DNA of 63,287 nt, counting the filler, from Gonapodya sp. JEL0774 (lineage: Eukaryota), in the NCBI GenBank assembly GCA_027604505.1. It is 34 parts of 34 records of this genome, joined end to end, with 100 filler letters (N's around TTAATTAATTAA, not from the genome) between each part and the next. Parts side by side here need not be neighbours in the genome. Positions count along the whole stretch, not along the records: positions 55,968 to 57,723 come from JADIIX010002655.1; 33 more parts are not named here. One strand, written 5' to 3'. A program made the translations under genes and the position numbers. Shown in pieces: positions 3,747-58,490 of the stretch (the stretch's first letter is position 1; each line of letters starts with the position of its first letter). The notes beneath the pieces are model-generated. The model saw only the letters and a list, made by a program, of their open reading frames with translations, ran no database searches and was not told the origin of the DNA.

Positions 3747-5058
3747 ATATGGTGAAGCTGTTGGAGTGATTGGTTTGTGGTCAGAAGGTCTGTGGAGGGC
3801 TGGAATTTGTCCCCTCCTTACCCCAAAGTGCCCCCATCACAGCCTACATGTCAGATTTGAATCTGTGAGCTTTCTCCCGATGTCTGAATAGAGAAACCAG
3901 ATATGATGAGGCTGTTGGGGTGATTGGTTTGTGCTCAGAAGGTCTGTGGAGAGCTGGAATTTGTCCCCTCCCTACCCCAAAGTGCCCCCAGCACATCCTA
4001 CATGTCAGGATTAGATGTGTGAATCTTCCCCCGATTTCTGAATACAGAAACCATACATGGTGAAGCTGTTGGAGTGATTGGTTTGTGGTCAGAAGCTCTG
4101 TGGAGGGCTGGAATTTGTCCCCTCCCAACCCCAAAGTGCCCCCATTGCAGCTTACTTGTCAGAATTGAATCTGTGAGCTTTCTCCTGATTTCTGAATAGA
4201 GAAACCATATATGGTGAAGCTCCTGGAGTGATTGGTTTGTGCTCAGAAGGTCTGTGGAGAGCTGGAATTTGTCCCCTCCCTACCCCAAAGTGCCCCCATC
4301 ACAGCCTACATGTCAGGATTGGATCTGTGAGCCTTCTCCCGATTTCTGAATACAGAAACCATATATGGTGAAGCTGTTGGAGTGATTGGTTTGTGGTCAG
4401 AAGGTCTGTGGAGGGCTGGAATTTGTCCCCTCCCTACCCCAAAGTGCCCCCATCACAGCCTACATGTCAGGATTGGATGTGTGAGCCTTCTCCCGATTTC
4501 TGAATACAGAAACCATATATGGTGAAGCTGTTGGAGTGATTGGTTTGTGGTCAGAAGGTCTGTGGAGGGCTGGAATTTGTCCCCTCCCTACCCCAAAGTG
4601 CCCCCATCACAGCTTACTTGTCAGAATTGAATCTGTGAGCTTTCTCCCGATTTCTGAATACAGAAACCATATATGGTGAAGCTGTTGGAGTGATTGGTTT
4701 GTGGTCAGAAGGTCTGTGGAGAGCTGGAATTTGTCCCCTCCCTACCCCAAAGTGCCCCCATCACATCCTACATGTCAGGATTAGATGTGTGAACCTTCTC
4801 CCGATTTCTGAATACAGAAACCATATATGGTGAAACGGTTGGAGTGATTGGTTTGTGGTCAGAAGGTCTGTGGAGGGCTGGAATTTGTCCCCTCCTTACC
4901 CCAAAGTGCCCCCATCACAGCCTACATGTCAGGATTGGGTCTGTGAGCCTTCTCCTGATTTCTGAATACAGAAACCATTTATGGGAAAGCTGTTGGAATG
5001 CTTGGTTTGTTCTCAGAGGGCCTGTGGAGGGCTGGAATCTGTCCCTTCCCTACCCACA
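3747..5058. repeat. 154-bp tandem satellite, 8 full units plus a degenerate partial ninth, running off the contig start
   Basis: Unit ATATGGTGAAGCTGTTGGAGTGATTGG... restarts at 3747, 3901, 4055, 4209, 4363, 4517, 4671, 4825 and 4979. Confidence 0.97.
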
Positions 5059-5619
5059 GTCTACAGTTGCATCCAAGATTGTAAACAGCACATGGCTACA
5101 CCCTCCACACCTCCAATATTTTTCCTATCAAAGGGGGAATTTTAAGGTATCATGATATTAATGAAGACTAAGTGAGAAAAAAATTTCATGAGATTTGAAG
5201 ATGTTTGTGGATTTTGGTGTGTGTGCCTGTGCTCCCAAAATGGCACCACCATAAAATGTGGTGTCATAAATGGTGCAGCTGGACATATAAACAGCCAAAT
5301 TTTCCCCACTCCCAAGACATTTTTTTCCATCCATCTGATAAAAGCACAAGTCATTTGCAGGCCCTAAGTAAGTTCTTCATCTTCAAATTTTCTCAAACTT
5401 TCTGAGATGCTTTTTTGGTTACTTTTGAGAAACTCACCTTCTTTCTTTTCTGCTTGGCATGAGGTGATCTGTATCAAGCAATTTTGGTGAGGAATCATGT
5501 AATGTATTTTTTGTGACAGNNNNNNNNNNNNNNNNNNNNNNNNNNNNNNNNNNNNNNNNNNNNTTAATTAATTAANNNNNNNNNNNNNNNNNNNNNNNNN
5601 NNNNNNNNNNNNNNNNNNN

Positions 5620-7337
5620 GAGTACAATCTCCGAAGCACCCTTAACATAGACACGGTAGAAGTACCGGCCCTTTCCCTTATTTTCTGGTTCCGGCGGTTG
5701 TTTTGCCTCGCGATCGATCTTTACCACGGTCGCCATGGACTTGCGTTCCGAGGCAAAGGGGTACACAGTGACGAGTGACTTCCATGAGGCATCACGATAA
5801 GCCTGCAAGGAAAAGTTGTTGGCAAATCTCCTCAAAAACGGATCAGGAGTATGAAGGTACCACCATCGTGCTCACCTTGATATCATTCGTACCACCGAGT
5901 TTCTCAAACCAATCCAACAACGCCACCTCTGTCTTACTCCCTTCAAACGTTCTCGACCCATCTTTCGCGACGCTCTCGAACGCAGAAGAGTTGAGCGCGA
6001 CGCTTTCCATGGTGATGTCGAGGAGCCGTTCTCCGGGGACAGCATGAGGACCTGGCCCGCTTGTGGGTGCGTCGGAGTTCGTTCCGATCGGACGGACGCG
6101 AGCGCGGAGACTTTTGATCTCGTTATCGCCGGAAAAGTGGGAGTGGCGGCCGAGAACTCCCTGAGGAAACACGAGTTGGTGGTTAAAACACTTTTTGGGC
6201 GGATTTCCTGCGCCTGAAGAGCAGCACGAACCTTGACGACCGTCATTTTGTTCTGAGTCAATGTACCAGTCTTGTCTGAACACACCGTGGTGGCTCCACC
6301 CATAGTCTCACAAGCGGCCAACACTCGGACGAGATTGTTATCTTTCAACATTCTCGTCGTGGCGAAAGCGAGAGCCAACGTCACAGCAAGTGGCAGCCCT
6401 TCAGGAACAGCGACGACGACACTGGAAAGGAGGTAGAGGTCAGAGATATGGGAAAATGGACAATGCGTTCGTGCACGTACATGGTGATGCTAGAAATGAC
6501 GATGTTGACGATGGTCGTCAAGACTTCAGTTGCACATTCTTGTGTGGTGCAGTTGGATCCAAAACCCTCGTGTGTGGCGACAGTAATGACGTATTTGAGA
6601 ATCAAGACGATAAGCATACTTTGATATTCCGACACAATAGGTGAGAAGTTGGTTTGGTGACTCAATCAAAAAAAAAAAGCGCTGAAGACACTTACAGGAG
6701 CGCTGCCGATGCTCCAAGCTTCGCGATACTTCCTGCGAGAGCGTCGAGCTTGATTTGAAGGGCTGGAGAAGCAAAACAAGGAAAGGATGATGGAGGTCGC
6801 TGAGTTCCCACAGAATAAAACATAAATTCTCACGTGTGTCTTCAGTTTCAGTCCGGAGACCTGCCAAACAAGGAGCAAACGTGTATCAGGACCGGCATCA
6901 ATCAGGCTGAAGCTATTGATGTGTTGACCACATACCCAACAACGTCTTGCCAAAGTACGAGTGCTCCCCCACCGCGCACACCACACATCGTCCGACCCCT
7001 TCGATAACCTTGGCGCCTGAAATGATGAACAAATCATGCGGACCCTTTTTGACCGCATCGGACTCTCCCGTGGCCGCACTCTCGTCGCACTTGAGGTTCG
7101 AGTACTCAAACAAGACACCGTCGATGGGGACGACCTCGCCAGGGTCCAGGATGTAAATGTCGCCGACGACGACGTCGTAGACAGAGACCAGTTGGGTGGT
7201 GCCGGAGCGGAGGAGCTTGACTTGGCGGTCGTCTTTTTTGGCGTTGAGGGCGCGGAACTGCTTCTCCTTTTGGTAATCGTTGATGGAGCCGGCGAGGACG
7301 ACGATGGTGACGGCTAATATGATGGCAACTCCTTCGA
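5620..7337 (-). CDS. PMC1: P2B-type Ca2+-transporting ATPase (PMC1/PMCA), internal multi-exon fragment
   Basis: [60 protein letters not shown] and VKGASEIVL motifs. Confidence 0.93.
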
Positions 7338-7492
7338 CTGCGGACGAAGTGATAATGCAGGGGTTCGTGCAGAGGTGAATACAGTTTCCTGNNNNNNNNN
7401 NNNNNNNNNNNNNNNNNNNNNNNNNNNNNNNNNNNTTAATTAATTAANNNNNNNNNNNNNNNNNNNNNNNNNNNNNNNNNNNNNNNNNNNNC

Positions 7493-9263: not shown

Positions 9264-10179
9264 NNNNNNNNNNNNNNNNNNNNNNNNNNNNNNNNNNNNN
9301 NNNNNNNTTAATTAATTAANNNNNNNNNNNNNNNNNNNNNNNNNNNNNNNNNNNNNNNNNNNNCTTCCTCCGATTCAGATTCGTATTCCTCTTGGAGAGC
9401 AGGTTCATCGGATTGTGCCAGGAACTGAGCCTTCTGGGCGACCATTTCCTGTTCGAGGAGCTGCTCCTTGAACGCATACGCCGCCAGAGTGGTCTCCTCC
9501 ATCTTCGAGTCCACCCGGTAGAGTGGTTCGTGATTCGCGGGCATCCTGCTGCAACGCTGGAGCCCGAAAAGTGGAATCGATTAGCCCGAATATCAGCGTT
9601 ATCATAGCTGCGCTGGTGTCTATGCACGGGACAGCCCTCGCTCAAGTTTCTGCGCCGTGACATCGGGTGGCGCTTTTACGAACCCCCAGGCTTCAATGTT
9701 TGACAGATCCCTTCTCCACGCCACCAAACCCAGCTCCTTGCAAGGACTGGCCATCGCTCGGTAAAATCGCGCAAAGTCTGCCTTCGCCATGCCCAGATGA
9801 CTCACCCGATGGTTCACCCGAGTATGGATCACGGTGTGGAGAGAAGACAAACACAAAATGGTCCACCTGAAGCAGCTGACTACGGCAAAAGCGTGTTCTG
9901 AAGCGCAGTGGTTGCCTCTGCAGAAGAACTCGCGGTCGTGTGTCGCTTTGAGCTTCAGCACTATGCAGACAAGTGGAAACGGTGACGGTGGATCAACTGG
10001 TTTGTCCGGGGGCAACTGTGGTCACACATGGTGTATTTCAGGCAACTCAGCATTCATTCAAAATGTAGCGGCCATAACTTCTGGCCAAATTCTCGTCCAG
10101 GTCAGTCACAGGAGGAATATCTGATGTGGGGTTCGACTTGTGACTTTCTCATCAGTGTATGAATTGAGGTGCATTCATT

Positions 10180-11135
10180 TTACTCACCCCACTTCAACTC
10201 CGTGCACATCATCTGCATGACCTTATCTGTTCTCGCCCAAATTCGAAGAGCCGCTACATCATCCAGTGGAGTGGGTTGTAAGTTTACAATAACTAGAGGT
10301 TTGTTCGACCGCACGACTTGAAGTGGTACGTCACATGCGGGGCTCACGGTAAGTGAGGTACCCAAGACGAGTCCAAGGTCTGCAGTCCGAGAATTGTGGG
10401 TCGCAGCTACAAGAGCACGTCTCGGCAGTTGGTCCCCTGTTGCCCATCGGGATAATGATGGCAGGTGAAACGAAAAGCCACTGTCAAAACTTAAACTATC
10501 TGAGCGCCAACGTACCGAAGTGAACTATTGAGTCCCGTACACCACCCTTTCCACATGCGGGACAGATCACGTCTCGGTAGGTCTTCTTCCCCGCCTCATT
10601 CCAATTCACTTTTGCACAGCTCCTATAAAATTCCTCCCCACATTTATCGCACTTATCAACATTCAGATTTCCATGAAGTTCTGCTAATTTTACCCGGGGA
10701 ATCCCGCTGCGAAGATGGAGACCGTCCACGTTCTGGGAGACGAGGTAGTGGAGCTTGGAGTGGGCATTCATAGCCACGAGGGCCATATGTGTTGTAGTGG
10801 GTTTTATTGAGTTTAGTGGCGGTACTGGGGGTGGTTTCTCGTGGCGGGCTTCCAGAGTCCTTGACGTGTTGAGAATAGAGAACAGATGTTCGCGTTCGAC
10901 AACACTGCTTGCCAGCTGAAGTCGCCCAAGACTCACCATACTCCCTTGGGGCCTCTGAAGTCCGGAACTCAAAGCAAAGGCCCGTGAGACGCTGACCCTC
11001 TGATTGAATACGGGTAATCTCACTCACTCCCAGCCCTACCAAATCCCACAGTGAAGTAAGAAAGCAGATAGATCACCAGTTAAATAAGGACTCACGCCGT
11101 TGATATTCCAGCCCCTGTGTAAACGACGACTTTGT
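10180..11135 (-). CDS. Class IV sirtuin (SIRT6/SIRT7-like) NAD-dependent deacylase, multi-exon fragment
   Basis: VVYTGAGIST, PTTTHMAL, VSQNVDGLHLRSG, LAELHGN, CxxC...CxxC, GTSL and VIVNLQPTP motifs. Confidence 0.92.
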
Positions 11136-11635: not shown

Positions 11636-11753
11636 CGCCCCAACGCGTCTAGGACATTCTTGAGAAGCTGGAGAGCAAGAGATTGTGGATTTGGGCGAAA
11701 TTGGACATTTACTCTTTCACTATTGAGTTCACACCACATCCCCACACTCAATC

Positions 11754-13007
11754 ATGTCTGACACAATCCGTATAACGTCTGACGGCTTTAAAAAGGCCGT
11801 GGGTGTTCTTGAGGACGCCGCGAAGTTTCGGAAGTGGAAGAAACGGGCAGAAGTGGAGTTCCAGGCGTTGGATGTGATGGAGATTGTGGATGGGACGGAG
11901 CCATGCCCAACAGACAACGGCACCGAGAAGACGCTCTGGGAGCGCAAAAATCGCATGATCCGCGCCGCAATCTTTGCGGTAGTGTCCCCCAATCTCGACG
12001 GGCCATTAGATGCTTCGAAATCTGCTGCAGACAACTGGAAATCGCTCCAAACAGCCTACGCGCCTCGTCTAGTTGGCAAACGTCACAGTATCATGACGAT
12101 CATCCAGTCTACACGCCTCACAGGTACAATTGCCGAGCTGGAACGTACCCTTGGCGATTTGTTCGCCCAAGCCGCAGATCTCGACCCTGATCACCCAATC
12201 TCCGAGACGGATCAAATCCAGCACTTCCTCGCCGCGGTAAAGAGCGAGTACCCAATGGAGACTGCAATTCAGTTCAGCAAAGTTGACGCGAGGTACATCG
12301 AGGTGGTGCAGGCGTTTCGCGCTGCGGAAGGGCAGAAGAAGGCAGAGGCACAGGCGCAGATGGCAATGGCGGCTGCGAACAACGTAAACAGCAACGGCGA
12401 GGTGTGCTATGAGTGCGGGAGGCCTGGTCACTTCGCTCGTGAGTGCAGGTCACGTCGTTGTCACAACTGTGGCCAAGTTGGTCATCTTCAAGCGGGGTGC
12501 ACGGCGGGTAGAGGGAACGGAGCGCAGAATGCGTTCGGAGGCAGGGGAGGACCAGCGAGAGGTCGTGGGCGTGGTGGACGTGGTGGACGTTGGGGTTTTG
12601 GTCGTGGTCGCGGAAGGGGAGCAGCTAATCATGTTGAAAATGTGGACACTAGCGAGAATACATACGTGAGTGACGAGTACTTTTCGCGCGAAAAAGTGGG
12701 ATCTAAGGGCTCAGAGAAGAGCCAAAACGGGGACGTTTCGAAATTTTTGGCGCAGGGGTCCGGAAGCCCGCCCCCCCCCTCCCCCCCTGCCGAGGACTCT
12801 GGGGGGTCCCTGCCCTCCCTTTGTCTTTGGCGGGGGGAGCGGGGGGGCGGGCATGAACATGCCCATGTGAAAATGGAGAGTTTCGAAAAGTCCAGGTCTT
12901 CCTGGCCGACACCACCCACAACTCCACCTGCAGCAAATTGGGGTGCGGGGGTGTCGAAGGAAGAAGGCCTTAGTCCCCACAAGGGACCTTGCAAAGACCC
13001 CGTTGCA
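11754..13007 (+). mobile_element. gag: Ty1/copia gag (UBN2-type gag, two CCHC knuckles, RGG tract), truncated
   Basis: F.KW...E..F......IVDGTE.CP gag start; CYECGRPGHFAREC and CHNCGQVGHLQAGC; follows LTR and PBS. Confidence 0.9.
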
Positions 13008-44821: not shown

Positions 44822-46114
44822 TAGGGGGGGGTGACCCCCCGTGACTTTGCGCAGTGGGGCCGGAGGGGAGGGGAGGGTGCCCCGCGCAGCGGCCGCTTGT
44901 AGCGATGCTGCGCCACAGTGCCGCAAAGACGAACGATCGCGGAAAGTGCCTCTCTTCCACTCACCCGATGGCACAGTTCGGTCCACAAATTTGGACTTTG
45001 CACTCAAGTACTCGAAAGTGTCCTCTGTATTCTCCTCCTCTTGTACATCGCCGTCTATGTCATATCCATCCTCATAATCTTCTTCTGCAAAGTACACCCT
45101 TGCGTAGAAACCGCCACGTCCACCAAGTCCACCACCTCTGTTCTGACCTCTACCCTTTCCAACACCAACTCCTCTCCGCGCTCCTCCACCCTGGTTCATT
45201 CCACCTCCACGATAGCCACCACGGTTCCCAGTACCTCTCTGGTTGTCTGGTACTCCGCGGCCACCACCATATCCACCTTCGCCGCCAAACCTTCCCCAAC
45301 TGTCACCACGAAAACTTCCAAACCTCGCCTGAATATCGCTTGCCCACTCCGCGGGTGTGGCGCAGTCACGACCAAAGTGTCCGTATCCTTGGCAACGGTT
45401 GCACTTGTCGAATTTCTGAGCGACTCGTCGAAACCCATCCGGAACTGCCTTTCCACGCTCCACGGCATTCACTTCATGACCCTCGAGTCGACCCTGAATC
45501 TCAGCGTTCCGAAGCGCATTGGTAATGTCAGCGACGGTTGCAGGGGTGGAATCGGGGGAAAGTGTGAATCGATCGTAGATGTAGGCAGACCTGTGCTTTG
45601 CACCCTCCAAAAAAATCCTTTGCTCGTCTGACAGTGATAAAGATCCGCCGGTTGCTTTGTACTCGTTCTTGAGTTTGCTGAAAGTTGCGAGATAGTCCGT
45701 CACAGACCCATCCATCCGCACATCCTCAAGTGCCCGCCTCTTAATGAACTCCTCTGCCTTCCGATTTCCATGATATGTCGCTCGGAGTTGTTCCCAGAGT
45801 TCTGCTGACGTGTTGCAATCTTCGACCGTCAGGAAAAGATCCTCAGCAATGATCGAAATCAAAGCTGCTTTCAATCCCCGATCGGCATCATCCCATTCCT
45901 CCTGTTTCGCTTCGATTTCCGCTTTTTCGTCCCTACTTGCTATTGCTGGTGGGTCTTCTGGACGTTTCGTGACCCCAATGGCCATGTTCCACGCCCCCGG
46001 GATCGCCTGCATCTGGACCCTCGCACTCCCCATCCATACCAGGTAATTGTCCATTCCAGTGAGCTTCCTCGTCACTCTTTTAGCCAATGCATCGTACTTT
46101 CGTGTGTCGCTCAT
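44822..46114 (-). mobile_element. gag: Ty1/copia gag (element B), truncated
   Basis: KLTG.DNY.VW, ELWEQL..TY, GSVTDYLA.F, CNRCQGYGHFGRDC and an RGG tract. Confidence 0.9.
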
Positions 46115-46209
46115 GGTTGATTTGACGTGGCGTGAATGGGAGTCCCCGATTCAGTGTCCAAATCCGTCGAAATTTCCACCAGTTTCAATCTGTTTCCACC
46201 TTCAGAGCT

Positions 46210-53061: not shown

Positions 53062-54394
53062 GGGACAGGCGGTTGGAGAATGCGGGTTGATGGTGATGCG
53101 TGCAGATGGCTTTGGTCTGTCATGGTGGGATTTGTCCCGGGATGTTCGCGATAAGTATGGGCGGTCGCGTTTCTATTCGCAAAGTCGCACGCCCGCTCTT
53201 TTGGCTCTTTGCTTCCTGAGTCAGCAGAAAACGGGATGATGCCCTGAAGATGGAATATTTACCACTGACAGGGAGTACACAAACTCCAACAGACTAATAA
53301 AAATGCGAAATCACCTTTCCAACTCGCAATCCATCGCACGCTATGCTGCTTTTCTTGGTACCCCTACCCTCTCCCCTTCCTCGGGGACCCATCACGCAAC
53401 AGTCAGTCTTGATATGGACGTACCTACACGTTCGTCACAAATGGACACCGCGGGCCAGCGACCATGGATGGACTGGAGATCGTGGGAAACTTCGGGCACA
53501 ATAGAATGAAGGGTTGATTTAGAGAAAGGATCATGGTGTCGTTCGCACCATCCTCTCCCTCGAGTGGTGTCCCCCCCATCTGCACCGCGATGTACTCAAA
53601 TCAATGAAAAGCCTGCACCCGATTCTGACCACATAATTTGTACCAAAAGTAAAGATGTGCACACACGTCGTGTCCTACCACCTCCAGACCTTTGCATATT
53701 GCGATCTGTGGCGAGCATGAAAGCCCCGACGAGCCGCAGCCTAGTCCGAAAGATGCGACTGAGGTTTCTGGAGTTCCTTCTGTCCCACCCCCAACACCAC
53801 ACGGTACGCTGTCACTTCCTCTGTCCTGTACACCTCGTGTAGCCAACAGACCACCCAGGAGAGCTCGAGGTGTTTGTCTCCTATCCACTGAACCTGACCG
53901 TTGCGGCCACCACGTCGCTTGATGGCGCTTCGACGCTCTCTATTGATGTGCTTACGGGACTTGTGTGCGGTTCGTCCAGTAAAGCTTTCCTGGTTCGACA
54001 CCCCACGCCGANNNNNNNNNNNNNNNNNNNNNNNNNNNNNNNNNNNNNNNNNNNNTTAATTAATTAANNNNNNNNNNNNNNNNNNNNNNNNNNNNNNNNN
54101 NNNNNNNNNNNAGTTTCATCCGTAAATGTGTAAGTTGTGATTGACGGCGAATGTGGCCTCCAGTCAAACTCACAATACAGTCTACATTTGCATTGAATTG
54201 TGAAGAGAAAGTGTAAATAAAGAAATAAAGAAATCCATTGTGAAGACCAGAAGCAGCTACGATCACCAGTGAGGACGGTTGTGCCTGCAGGGATCATTCC
54301 CTGGCACGAAGCGGGCGCTTCGGTGCAGTCAACCATCACTCTCCGTTTTCCCTTTCCAGCTCGTGAAGTGCCGGGGAAAATGTTCAGAAAAGCG

Positions 54395-55867
54395 ATGCCG
54401 TCAAGCGGCCTTGGCTTCTTGACGTTCGTGGTGCTCGTACTTTCTGTGACCGCCCAAACTACTCTTCTACCGAAGGGCTCTCTCTGCAAGGCGGATTCGG
54501 ACTGCAGAAACGGCAACTGTAAGTCATCGCTCCTTAGTACTGGGTGAATGCGCCTTGCCTGAGTGCTGATGGGGTGTCTATCTGAACGTTTTCGCGAAAT
54601 GCCCCCTGACGCTTTTGCCGAACCGCTCTCCAGGCCAATCGAGTCCAGATATCAATGGACAGGGTATTTGCTTCTGCAACGCCAATGGCCAGTGGACGTG
54701 GGGCACAAGTTGGTGCCGTTTCGTTCCACCACCTTTGATTGTTCTGATTGCTGAGGGAGGACATTCGCAACATTTCTCGCAGATTTAAAATGTGGCGCTA
54801 GTGGAGTTGAATTCCGTTGCGGGACCGCTGGTTGGTCTCCGATACCCGCCCCTGGTTTGCCCTGCCCGACCACAACTACAGTCATGACGTGAGAACTGCA
54901 ACTGCGCCAAATGGGAGTGAATAGCATCAGATTTAATGCATCCTCAAATTTCTCCAAAATCAGGACTGTCAAGACTACCGATTTACCAATGTGAGCCTCA
55001 GGATATGCTCCCGTCCCCTAATGCACAAATTGCCAACTCTCTTTCGGAAATGTCTCACAGGTCCTCGCAGTCACTCTTAACCACCACACAGACTACAACA
55101 AGTGATAAGCCAACTACAACGGCTGAAGTACCGATGTGAGTTTGTCTTGAATACACTGCACCGTCAGCTCATTCAACGAAAGTTTGCACGTCGATCTTGT
55201 TGGACAACAGATCCACCACATTAGACAGCTCGACCAGTGAAACACCTTCTTCCACTACTGAAAAGACGATGTGAGTTCACAAAAGGATGTTGCCTCATTG
55301 CTTCGACTCACTGTAGTTCCTCCCACCAACAGATCCATTACCGAGACTCCGATTTCCACCACTGAGAGCACGGCGAGTAAGACCCCTTCGTCCACCACCG
55401 AAGTAACGACGTAAGTTGATTTGAGGTATAGCGAGTCAGCGGCTCAAGCTGAAAGACTGATTCTCACTTGGCTCAGCGACAGTTCTACCACAACAGAGAG
55501 CACGACCAGTGAGACACCTTCTTCCACCACTAAAGAGGCGACGTGAGTTTCCAACGGGATGGTGTCTTGTTGCTTCAGCTCAATATAGGTCCTCCCACCA
55601 ACAGATCCACTACTGAGACTCCCTCTTCCACCAAGGAGAGTACGACAAGTGACACTCCTTCCTCCACAACTGAGGCAACGACGTAAGTTGATTTGATGCA
55701 TAGCGAATCAGCGCCTCAAGCCCTAAATCTGATTCTCACTTTGCTCGGCAACAGATCTACCACTTCAGAAAACACACCCAGTGAGATACCTTCTTCCACC
55801 ACTGAAGAGACGACGTGAGTTCCACAAAGGGATGTTGTCTAGTTGCTTCAGCTCAATATAGGTCCTC
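54395..55867 (+). CDS. Secreted Cys-rich protein with a Ser/Thr/Glu/Pro mucin-like stalk encoded by micro-exons
   Basis: Signal peptide (FLTFVVLVLSVTA), CKADSDCRNGNC.. Cys domain, then 27-, 75-, 60-, 78-, 60-, 78- and 60-nt exons. Confidence 0.8.
55211..55867 (+). repeat. 272-bp tandem repeat (two exons plus two introns per unit), about 2.4 copies
   Basis: Exon A starts at 55211, 55483 and 55755; exon B at 55333 and 55605. Confidence 0.9.
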
Positions 55868-56111
55868 NNNNNNNNNNNNNNNNNNNNNNNNNNNNNNNNN
55901 NNNNNNNNNNNTTAATTAATTAANNNNNNNNNNNNNNNNNNNNNNNNNNNNNNNNNNNNNNNNNNNNTTTTGAATACTATACTGCGTAAATATACAGCTC
56001 CGTCTCTCTCTAACTTCTGCATCGTGTGAGAGAGTGCGGGAGGAGGTGCGTGCACGACCTCAGCCGTTCTGGTTTCAGTCCCGCGATCTCTTTCTGCATC
56101 CATCCAAATCC

Positions 56112-57723
56112 ATGCAGCATTCTAGCGTGCTCGCCTCCTCTGGCCTCGACACCAATGAATCTTCTTATACACGGAATCCTTTACTTGCCCGTCCCCGAAG
56201 CTTCATTGCCGACGAGAAGCCTCCTGTCATTCGTGAATCACTCCCTCAATCCCCAGGCAGAGACCCAACGACAACCGAGCGACCAATGATGGAATCGCAC
56301 TCTCCTCCCAGCGATCGTGGATCGAAATTTGATATCGTTCAGGAGCTGTTCCAGATCGGGGATTCGTCAACAGGTGTGTCCGAGGGGACAACGCACGCAT
56401 CCGCGCCAGCAGCCTGACCGTACTCGGTGGGAAATTCACGACTTGAGGCCACGATATGGATAAACCTTGGGATCGGGATCTCCCTCTTATCAAGCGAGTG
56501 GTGAGTTGGGTATGAACAAACATATGTTGTTCCGCGAAAGACGATCTCCTTTGGCTTCTCCAGATATGGGCGATTCTGTGGCTTTGTGCGGCTGGCTTCT
56601 TGGCGTACTAGTAAGTGACGATCCCCGATGCATCTCGCCCGTGCTCCACTTTTCACTTGCACGCGCACTTCTGTGGTCAACTCCGCCCCCGCCACCCCGT
56701 AGCTTGCGAAATCAATATAACGTATGTGCTCAACTTTAATAGGTCTCGGCCTGTCGCCCTCAATTCTCTCCGACTCTCAATCTGTTCCGTAATTGTCAAC
56801 ATTACCCGTTGCAGTATATGATGACAAATCCCACCTCCACCTCCGTTTCATACTCATGTGGGCCCTTTCTTGTACTTCACGAGCGGTTTTATTGAGCGCT
56901 GTCGCAACTTTATCTCCTGTGCCACAGACACAAATCCCTTCCCTTTCCCGACTCTCACCATTTGTCTCCGATACGATTTTGATCCCAGTGCAATCGAGCG
57001 TCTACTGACCCGGGATAATTCCTCCATGGGTGTTCAATGCACCTTCGGTACGAGTTCCATCAAATCTTCTCGATCCAGCACTGAAGACTGTCGAGGGGAC
57101 TTCGGTGTCGAGTTTGTAGACTGGCCGTTTGGTGTAGCGTCCTCTGTGTGCCTTAGCTTCAACCCAGGATCTACCACTACCAACCGGACCGCCACTACGC
57201 GAGGAACCGTAATGAAAATCGAAGGGTCTGGCTTTCACACTAACGACGATTTACGATTCATGGTCCACAGTAAGAACTCGAGCTACTATCCTTTACAAGG
57301 ACAGCGTATCGAGATCGGATCCATCGTCACGAATACGTTTTCCCGCTCCTCCGTTTCTCTGATCAAGAACTGCAACTCCGACTCCAACTACGACCAACTC
57401 GCATGCTACAGACAATACGAGCAGTCTTGCATCACCCGCGTGTGTAACTGCTCCTACATATCTCTCGAAACGATCAGATACTCCACCGCAACCGGTGGCG
57501 ACACGTGCCAGGATCGGTATTGGGACTCCACCCTCTACTCCAGCAGTTGCTTCGCCTCGAATACACTACCGTGCAATTCAGATGGATCTAACAAAACTTG
57601 CTCGCTGGCGGATGTGTGTTCCGAGAGCATGATGAACAAGCTGTGTCCCGACGTCAGCTGTGGGTGGGACGAGTGGAATTTGAGGACCAGTACTGTAACG
57701 GCAGCTGCGACAGATCCTACGCA
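56112..57723 (+). CDS. Deg/ENaC/ASIC-superfamily ion channel subunit, 3'-truncated
   Basis: Exons 56112-56373, 56448-56500, 56564-56610, 56703-56721, 56815-56857 and 56928-57723 splice in frame to give STGHD..KRVIWAILWLCAAGFLAYY..NPTSTSV..FPFPTLTIC, then CTFG, CLSFN, RFMVH and a Cys-rich thumb. Confidence 0.82.
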
Positions 57724-57839: not shown

Positions 57840-58490
57840 GCCGCGGTCAAGCTACAGTCCCTTCTTCGCCCTGGAGGTATTCTCCTGGCCGACGAATTCT
57901 CTCGTGACGAGGTCACCGAAGCCGCTGCGAAGTTCCTCTTTGACCGTATCGATCTGTTCCGCGCAATGGGGCTTATGGAGGACAGTTCTGGCCATTCTCA
58001 CAGCAACGCCCACGATCATGGTGGAGAGAAGACACACGACCACGGGCATGGAGGTGAGAGTCGTGCGACTCGACACGACCACAGCCACCGTCATGGAAGC
58101 GAATCGAATCACGACGCATCTGGACCCCGGTCTAATCTGACATATGTCCACGGTCACGGATCTGTTGGCTCATCGTCTGATGGGGGCCCCCGCGAGGGGC
58201 TACGTGGTATGCCACCTTTGGATAGATGGAAACGCATGACATCCCACAACCCTCCACTTCCCGGAGGAGCGGAGATGCTCGCCGCGCTCAAGGCAGGATT
58301 TGGGGAAGAAAATGTTGTTGTCATCAAAGGGGATCCTTCTCTGTACCTTATGGGGACGCTGCGTGTGAAGATATCCGAGGAGCACCGAACAACGTTTGAA
58401 GAGGTTTTCAAGGCTCAAGAGGAAGAGAGTATTCAGAACAAGCTATTTCCTGGGATCGGAGCTTTGTACAAATGCCGAAGGTCGCAATAG
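57840..58490 (+). CDS. Class I SAM-dependent methyltransferase, last exon, with His-rich insert
   Basis: After a TAG acceptor: SLLRPGGILLADEF (post-motif II), then an HDH/HSH/HGH-rich loop. Confidence 0.7.
   Translation, partial: AAVKLQSLLRPGGILLADEFSRDEVTEAAAKFLFDRIDLFRAMGLMEDSSGHSHSNAHDHGGEKTHDHGHGGESRATRHDHSHRHGSESNHDASGPRSNLTYVHGHGSVGSSSDGGPREGLRGMPPLDRWKRMTSHNPPLPGGAEMLAALKAGFGEENVVVIKGDPSLYLMGTLRVKISEEHRTTFEEVFKAQEEESIQNKLFPGIGALYKCRRSQ

What the first reader, a model, noticed from the sequence alone, without database searches (positions are those of the whole stretch)
56112..57723. Intron-rich Deg/ENaC/ASIC-family channel in an apparently fungal genome
Seen: five short introns splice in frame to give ...ELFQIGDSSTGHDMDKPWDRDLPLIKRVIWAILWLCAAGFLAYYLRNQYNYMMTNPTSTSVSYSYTNPFPFPTLTIC. 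The ectodomain then reads QCTFG, CLSFN, LRFMVH...P and a Cys-rich block (C..Y...AC...Y...C....CNC...C...C...C...CP..SC). Established: this order (pre-TM1 ST.HG, RxxW-TM1, P..T.V, FP.vTIC, C.tFN, thumb cysteines) is the Deg/ENaC signature. The family is classically regarded as metazoan, with sporadic protist members, and is not known from model yeasts and moulds. Inference: a native channel (intron style matches host genes in this window) retained in a zoosporic fungus, possibly for Na+/H+ sensing. The ORF track misses the TM1 exons. I cannot confirm whether such fungal members are already described. The true start may lie upstream.
Basis: partly seen in the sequence, partly recalled or inferred. 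Interest (0 to 1): 0.88.

Follow-up and report, generated by a model that had tools for sequence, protein, structure and literature searches.

The report
Animal-type sodium channel family in fungi
This is a real, spliced but cut-off gene of the animal ENaC/ASIC ion-channel family; close relatives occur in two genera of aquatic early-branching fungi, so it is likely a native fungal branch of a family that channel studies reported as missing from fungi, and it is predicted to form a three-subunit cation channel.

Summary
Confirmed, with corrections. Five introns splice to a 406-residue open frame: cytosolic N-terminus, TM1 and a 16-cysteine ectodomain. The window is 34 glued contigs, and this 1,756-bp contig ends before TM2. 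The closest relative is Gonapodya prolifera KXS08836 (63% identical; PF00858 75.7 bits against a cut-off of 23.6; TM2 present). Six more relatives were found, two of them Hyaloraphidium curvatum paralogues on a 573-kb scaffold. Together they form one group (100/99 support) on a long stem, apart from all 16 other sequences tested, so contamination is very unlikely. Exon 1 and its odd GAG acceptor are supported by homology. The group has a short finger (25-36 residues). The window protein lacks the ASIC proton residues H73 and E79 and has HD instead of HG; the Gonapodya orthologue has a GFG filter. Canonical proton gating is therefore unlikely. Gating stimulus, selectivity and expression are untested. 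A 2023 channel study searched Fungi and found none; a 2023 fungal-genomics supplement lists one unnamed chytrid member without comment. Ancestral retention versus ancient transfer is unresolved. Verdict: new variant of a known family, interest 0.74.

The parts
55968..57723 (.). the whole contig (1,756 bp) between two N/TTAATTAATTAA spacers; holds only this gene
   Evidence: GC 0.518, trinucleotide distance ranks 17th of 34 contigs
56112..56373 (+). exon 1: cytosolic N-terminus to the start of the re-entrant loop (aa 1-88); start ATG inferred, frame open 46 codons further up with no other Met
56374..56447 (+). intron 1, 74 nt, GT donor, GAG acceptor, CTGAC branch-like site 35 nt upstream
   Evidence: GAG precedent
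56448..56500 (+). exon 2: His89 (HG position, followed by Asp) and pre-TM1 segment
56501..56563 (+). intron 2, 63 nt, GT-AG
56564..56610 (+). exon 3: TM1 with the conserved Trp (W107 = ASIC1a W46)
   Evidence: (10 of 16 identical to P0001)
56611..56702 (+). intron 3, 92 nt, GT-AG
56703..56721 (+). exon 4, 19 nt: end of TM1
   Evidence: 4 of 7 identical
56722..56814 (+). intron 4, 93 nt, GT-AG
56815..56857 (+). exon 5: wrist and first palm strand; Thr at the ASIC H73 position
   Evidence: (11 of 15 identical)
56858..56927 (+). intron 5, 70 nt, GT-AG
56928..57723 (+). exon 6: ectodomain (FP motif, short finger, beta-ball, Cys-rich thumb), cut by the contig end about 30 residues before TM2
   Evidence: all 16 ectodomain cysteines shared with P0001

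Best explanation
The contig carries the first six exons of a Deg/ENaC-family gene that is likely native to a Gonapodya-like monoblepharid fungus; its product is predicted to be one subunit of a trimeric, two-helix, non-voltage-gated cation channel that would let Na+ in and depolarise the membrane, and it is likely not opened by protons in the ASIC way. Shown: gene structure, family membership through the orthologue, and one group with Gonapodya and Hyaloraphidium proteins. Predicted: fold and trimer, TM2 taken from the orthologue. Inferred: ion conduction, amiloride block, weaker Na+ selectivity (HD loop here, GFG belt in the orthologue), and opening as a basal leak tuned by external cations or force rather than by a large finger ligand site. 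Likely role: sensing or scavenging salts in fresh water. Odds: native Deg/ENaC gene about 0.95; conducts cations, alone or with a paralogue, about 0.85; not canonical proton gating about 0.75. On origin I lean to ancestral retention (0.5) over ancient transfer (0.4).
For: Orthologue P0001: 63% over 307 aa; PF00858 75.7 bits, cut-off 23.6. In PDB its top 15 sequence hits are ASIC1/2/5, matching at TM1 and TM2. The Atlas model of P0001 matches PF00858 clusters at TM 0.60-0.71 by target, 0.48 by query, over 320-327 residues. The window exon's top Atlas hit is an ASC cluster at 0.94. The spliced protein scores 49.4 bits on a profile of 11 non-fungal-group hits, best of 500 shuffles 6.1 (those hits were picked by an A1 search, so not fully independent). 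Six relatives at E 5e-34 to 1e-11, all above the Pfam cut-off, two named H. curvatum. Group support 100/99, stem 1.48. Trimer model of P0001 residues 30-362: score 0.45, best of 3 controls 0.00, runs agree in at least 52% of contacts, pLDDT at least 56; the mark was reached by 21 of 30 solved homodimers and 0 of 23 monomers, but ASIC trimers are solved, so the pass may be from memory. Register with ASIC1a holds at T26, H28, W46, F87, P88 here and at G444, T449, E452 in P0001. H73 position is Thr or Ser in 7 of 7 group members aligned. ContScout flagged 4 G. prolifera proteins, not 39900. Intron sizes and GC3 resemble sibling-contig genes.
Against: This gene's own TM2 and stop are missing; the pore is read from a 63% relative. 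Both AlphaFold2 runs failed (pLDDT 31 and 33). No RNA evidence. HG is HD here and the orthologue's belt lacks the Ser; in human ASIC1a S446 is called essential and bonds H28, so a homomer may not conduct. Absence of H73 does not exclude proton gating: TadNaC2 and others are proton-activated without it. Four of the six relatives are unnamed, so the group is shown fungal only at its named members. The host of this assembly was not tested on other contigs. Only 1 of 8 Chytridiomycota genomes and none of the other fungal or protist groups have the family in a 123-genome table, which retention must explain by many losses.
Confidence: 0.75

Rival explanations
1. Same gene and function, but acquired by ancient horizontal transfer from an animal or protist into the monoblepharid ancestor rather than retained from the opisthokont ancestor. 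This rivals only the origin clause.
For: Family present in Metazoa (1.0) and 1 of 8 Chytridiomycota, zero in the other 20 groups including choanoflagellates, Filasterea, nucleariids and aphelids as sampled; by my count retention needs roughly eight or more losses. All six named non-fungal hits looked up were animals. Elkhatib 2023 itself raises lateral transfer for the patchy range.
Against: The group sits on a long stem and is not nested in any supported animal subgroup; it had split into at least three subtypes. G. prolifera keeps other ancient traits such as vertically inherited selenocysteine machinery, and non-Dikarya fungi keep 540 protist-shared families. The tree has no root, weak deep nodes and no named protist.
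Confidence: 0.4
2. The subunit is proton-activated through non-canonical residues, a convergent acid sensor like placozoan TadNaC2.
For: Several non-ASIC members are proton-activated without H73 or K211. Best solved sequence matches are ASICs and BASIC.
Against: H73 and E79 positions are Thr and Tyr; the finger that borders the acidic pocket is cut to 25 residues; the PDB match reflects which members are solved.
Confidence: 0.2
3. It is a non-conducting or accessory subunit that works only in a heterotrimer with another paralogue.
For: HD here and GFG in the orthologue alter both lower-pore motifs. The group has HG, HD and Pro-Pro subtypes, and H. curvatum has an HG-type and a Pro-Pro-type gene on scaffold records of the same length.
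Against: Only one member was found for G. prolifera. GFG or GVG belts and missing HG also occur in non-fungal-group hits P0020 and P0016. Rat alpha-ENaC S589G still conducts with PK/PNa 0.04, though with wild-type partners. The homotrimer model passed.
Confidence: 0.2
4. The contig comes from an animal or protist contaminant.
For: It is a 1.76-kb contig with no neighbour; the G. prolifera copy is on a small 9,585-bp scaffold; one sibling contig (3747-5519) has CpG o/e 0.07 and may be foreign.
Against: Members occur in three separate assemblies, including a 572,809-bp H. curvatum scaffold; they group together away from animals; composition is mid-pack; ContScout did not flag the orthologue.
Confidence: 0.03

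Closest known systems
Gonapodya prolifera KXS08836.1 (M427DRAFT_39900, UniProt A0A138ZWG9), hypothetical protein
   Same: 63% identity, all 16 ectodomain cysteines, sister in the tree at 100/100
   Different: Its model starts at the equivalent of residue 101, so it lacks the re-entrant loop, and carries an MFS-transporter fragment at 488-569, probably a gene-model fusion (inference). Uncharacterised.
Hyaloraphidium curvatum KAI9009062.1 and KAI9009182.1, hypothetical proteins
   Same: Same group, short finger, PF00858 above cut-off
   Different: 23-25% identity; one has an intact HG but a model that derails before TM2, the other has Pro-Pro in place of HG and a GFS belt.
Vertebrate ASIC1/ASIC2/BASIC (ASIC5)
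   Same: TM1-ectodomain-TM2 order, FP motif, thumb cysteines, hydrophobic hub F87/F174/F197, TM2 Asp and Gly pattern in the orthologue
   Different: No H73 or E79; F87-to-F174 spacing 33 residues against 87; HG is HD; orthologue belt GFG against GAS; 16 ectodomain cysteines.
Unicellular Deg/ENaC homologues of Tunicaraptor, Cafeteria and dinoflagellates (Elkhatib 2023, PMC10507113)
   Same: Non-animal members with a patchy range
   Different: That study's BLASTp of Fungi found none. I could not obtain these sequences, so their relation to the fungal group is untested.

Membership tests
Deg/ENaC (PF00858) | Profile match above the curated cut-off | tested here: met
   Met through the orthologue (75.7 bits) and 6 of 6 relatives (36.7-93.9 bits). 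The window's long exon alone gave no hit; the spliced protein was scored only on my own profiles.
Deg/ENaC (PF00858) | TM1, large ectodomain, TM2 | tested here: inconclusive
   TM1 and ectodomain present; contig ends before TM2. TM2 present in P0001 and 5 of 6 relatives.
Deg/ENaC (PF00858) | Post-TM1 FP motif and Cys-rich thumb | tested here: met
   F148, P149, C154 in register; 16 of 16 cysteines conserved with P0001.
Deg/ENaC (PF00858) | Pre-TM1 HG motif | tested here: not met
   T87 and H89 in register, Gly is Asp. Two group members have intact HG, one has HD, two have Pro-Pro. The motif is near-universal, not absolute: C. elegans DEGT-1d lacks it.
Deg/ENaC (PF00858) | G/S-x-S selectivity belt in TM2 | tested here: inconclusive
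   Not on the contig. Orthologue has GFG (not met); P0003, P0004, P0006, P0039 have GFS (met).
Deg/ENaC (PF00858) | Hand-shaped fold and trimer | tested here: inconclusive
   Atlas model TM 0.60-0.71 to ASC clusters; trimer model 0.45 against 0.00 controls, possibly from memory; AlphaFold2 failed twice. All on the orthologue except.
Deg/ENaC (PF00858) | Amiloride-sensitive, non-voltage-gated cation current | not testable with these tools
   Needs electrophysiology.
ASIC subfamily | H73 (with K211) proton determinants | tested here: not met
   H73 position is T134. K211 not located.
ASIC subfamily | Groups with bilaterian ASICs | tested here: inconclusive
   Separate group from the ASIC-like-labelled animal hits, but no validated ASIC was in the tree.

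The most novel reading that the evidence does not exclude
Monoblepharid fungi keep a third, ancient Deg/ENaC lineage inherited from the common ancestor of animals and fungi: a minimal-finger channel with its own HG, HD and Pro-Pro subunit types. It would date the family to the opisthokont ancestor, give an outgroup to root the animal clades, and offer a working model of the channel before peptide, proton and protease gating were added.
Probability: 0.45. Interest if true: 0.88.

Novelty: new variant of a known kind. Interest (0 to 1): 0.74.

Why it matters
Whether Deg/ENaC channels arose in animals and leaked out, or are older and were widely lost, is stated as open in Elkhatib 2023, whose search of Fungi came up empty. 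A multi-species fungal group gives the first holomycotan data point and a candidate outgroup. Its short finger and natural HG, HD and Pro-Pro and GFS/GFG variants can be tested directly in oocytes, bearing on the ancestral gating mode and on how the re-entrant loop and belt set selectivity. It also adds an animal-type sensory channel to the toolkit of aquatic fungi. The surprise is reduced by an automatic Pfam label on the G. prolifera record and one unremarked row in a 2023 supplement.

Tried and rejected
No whole genome is held, so linkage, paralogues and the 3' half could not be sought. No sequencing run was listed, so no RNA holder listed; this is no evidence either way. Pfam, NCBIfam and PDB searches with the long exon alone gave no channel hit; weak norovirus VP1 matches (E 0.02 or worse) were treated as chance. 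Word-index homolog searches found only P0001 and the contig's own 150-aa public model and missed the relatives later found by full HMMER. DNA scans found no relative in metagenome contigs, viral contigs or prokaryote genomes; these reach close relatives only. AlphaFold2 gave unusable models, so no fold search was run. Atlas feature search with P0001 gave no usable hit. Earlier-findings look-ups were empty. Rejected: a start at Met91 without exon 1 (scores 162.5 against 188.1); other intron chains; the MFS tail as part of the channel (absent from relatives); the GFG belt or the short finger as unique to fungi (GFG in P0020, 20-residue finger in P0023). P0014 was dropped as a pentapeptide-repeat false hit.

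Full report
Setting. The window is not one locus. It is 34 contigs of 1,753-1,773 bp joined by N-spacers. The finding fills one contig, 55968-57723, so there are no true neighbours. No whole genome is held and no sequencing run was listed.

Gene structure. Five introns (56374-56447, 56501-56563, 56611-56702, 56722-56814, 56858-56927) splice to 406 codons with no stop (my first two attempts had off-by-one errors). The protein has one hydrophobic helix near residues 99-123, six N-glycosylation sequons and 16 ectodomain cysteines, and runs off the contig. Intron 1 has a GAG acceptor, which I doubted. Three results support it: it is the only acceptor joining exon 1 in frame; a profile of five relatives built without this protein or P0001 aligns across the junction without a gap and scores 188.1 bits, with 0 of 300 exon-1 shuffles reaching that; and a sirtuin on a sibling contig needs a GAG acceptor too. 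Ten introns read from two host genes are 59-79 nt, against 63-93 nt here. GC3 is 0.58 against 0.46-0.64 in six other frames.

Family. The long exon alone hit nothing in Pfam or among PDB channels, but its top Atlas hit was an ASC cluster (0.94, 190 of 256 features). The homolog search returned 1 of 2,090 candidates: Gonapodya prolifera KXS08836.1, P0001, 63% identical over 307 residues. P0001 passes PF00858 at 75.7 bits, its top 15 PDB hits are ASIC1, 2 and 5, and its Atlas model matches ASC clusters over 320-327 residues (TM 0.60 and 0.71 by target, 0.48 by query, model pLDDT 0.56). It has TM2 about 30 residues past the point where the contig ends. A trimer model of P0001 residues 30-362 scored 0.45 against 0.00 for the best of three controls, contact agreement at least 52%, pLDDT at least 56; the mark was reached by 21 of 30 solved homodimers and 0 of 23 monomers, the calibration held two copies only, and the pass may be from memory of solved ASICs. 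AlphaFold2 failed with one and two sequences.

Native or contaminant. A full HMMER search of 1.84 billion representatives gave 36 hits: the contig's own 150-aa model, six relatives at E 5e-34 to 1e-11, and 29 weak hits. I looked up 20 of the 36. Two of the six are Hyaloraphidium curvatum proteins on a 572,809-bp scaffold; Amses 2022 places that genus in Monoblepharidomycota (passages), the phylum of Gonapodya. The other four are unnamed environmental or read-assembly proteins. Of 14 weak hits looked up, six are named and all are animals. 22 of 23 hits scanned pass PF00858. In a 24-row tree (LG+C20, careful run) the window protein, P0001 and six relatives are one side of a branch with support 100/99 and a stem of 1.48; window plus P0001 are sisters at 100/100. 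Left out: P0014 (false hit), P0031, twelve short fragments and the own model P0002; P0039 stood in for P0005; P0054 was added. Deep nodes are weak and there is no root. ContScout's table flags 4 G. prolifera proteins and not 39900 (supplement rows; file cut when stored; id match inferred). The contig ranks 17th of 34 in trinucleotide distance. Contamination of three assemblies by related organisms is very unlikely. That the window's organism is Gonapodya-like is inferred from this gene only.

Mechanism. ASIC numbering is from papers (T26, H28, W46, G444-S446, T449, E452: PMC8594623 passages; H73, E79, F87, F174, F197: PMC10507113 passages); the cysteine labels C93, C172, C194 are recalled. The window protein keeps T26, H28, W46, F87 and P88 in exact register but has Asp for the HG glycine, Thr for H73 and Tyr for E79. 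The finger span is 25 residues here and 25-36 in 7 of 7 group members aligned, against 56-228 in 13 of 14 others; P0023 has 20. P0001's TM2 keeps the gate Asp, the two upper glycines, the belt Gly, Thr and Glu, but the belt is GFG; four relatives have GFS, and GFG or GVG also occurs in two hits outside the group. In human ASIC1a the belt Ser bonds the HG His and is called essential, while rat alpha-ENaC S589G conducts with PK/PNa 0.04 and C. elegans DEGT-1d lacks both HG and the Ser (PMC8536179 passages). I infer a trimeric, non-voltage-gated cation channel with a loosened lower pore, probably amiloride-sensitive, not gated by the ASIC proton mechanism, and most simply a basal Na+-permeant conductance tuned by external cations or force. 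Proton gating by other residues and an accessory-subunit role stay open. Hyaloraphidium is recalled, not checked, as lacking a known flagellate stage; if so, a zoospore-only role is unlikely.

What is in print. Ten full-text searches listed no paper on a fungal Deg/ENaC; the library lacks most subscription journals. Elkhatib 2023 (PMC10507113; passages, methods section, first third of references, 11 of 15 supplements) ran BLASTp on Fungi and found candidates only in holozoans, one alveolate and one stramenopile; four unseen supplements could bear on this. Aguilar-Camacho 2023 (passage) names only Heterokonta and Filasterea as exceptions. Merenyi 2023 (PMC10406608) never mentions ENaC in its main text, but Supplementary Data 2a lists cluster mcl_2848 with Metazoa 1.0, Chytridiomycota 0.125 and zero in 20 other groups; one member carries an MFS domain, so it is almost surely P0001 (inference). 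The fact is thus tabulated but unnamed. The Hyaloraphidium members, the distinct group, its subtypes and its short finger were not found in any paper I saw.

Origin. Retention from the opisthokont ancestor fits the long stem, the internal subtypes and G. prolifera's other ancient holdings (bioRxiv 10.1101/314781 passages), but needs roughly eight or more losses by my count. Ancient transfer fits the narrow range. My data cannot choose: 0.5 against 0.4.

Verdict. A real, very likely native fungal Deg/ENaC gene; a new variant of a known family that contradicts the range given in recent channel papers and makes an open question testable. Interest 0.74.

Noticed in passing
window 9364-11135 (-): Sirtuin gene with four introns of 60-79 nt, one needing a GAG acceptor inside a conserved motif and one an AAG acceptor; the P-type ATPase at 5620-7391 (-) has six introns of 59-77 nt with one AAG. 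Non-YAG acceptors may be common in this genome (3 of 10 host introns read).
   Followed up: partly
window 3747-5519: 154-bp satellite, 8.5 copies at 90% match, with CpG o/e 0.07; the strongest composition outlier of 34 contigs. Methylation-eroded repeat or foreign DNA.
   Followed up: no
window 54112-55867: Secreted-looking gene with a Cys-rich start and Thr/Ser-rich mini-exons repeated with their introns in a 272-bp tandem unit, mucin-like.
   Followed up: no
window 57840-58487 (+): 216-aa frame with a His-rich insert; only a weak ZIP match (E 0.12). On a different contig, unrelated to the channel.
   Followed up: no
P0002 (window 56990-57439 approx.): The public gene model of this contig is only 150 aa with no Pfam label, which hides the channel from annotation-based surveys.
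   Followed up: yes
P0006, P0005/P0039: A subtype with Pro-Pro in place of HG and a divergent TM2 start; possible accessory subunit.
   Followed up: partly
P0023/P0054: Unnamed metagenome Deg/ENaCs with intact HG and a 20-residue finger on a very long branch, on contigs up to 425 kb; outside the fungal group.
   Followed up: no
window 11727-13007 (+), 44822-46150 (-): Copia-type gag frames.
   Followed up: no
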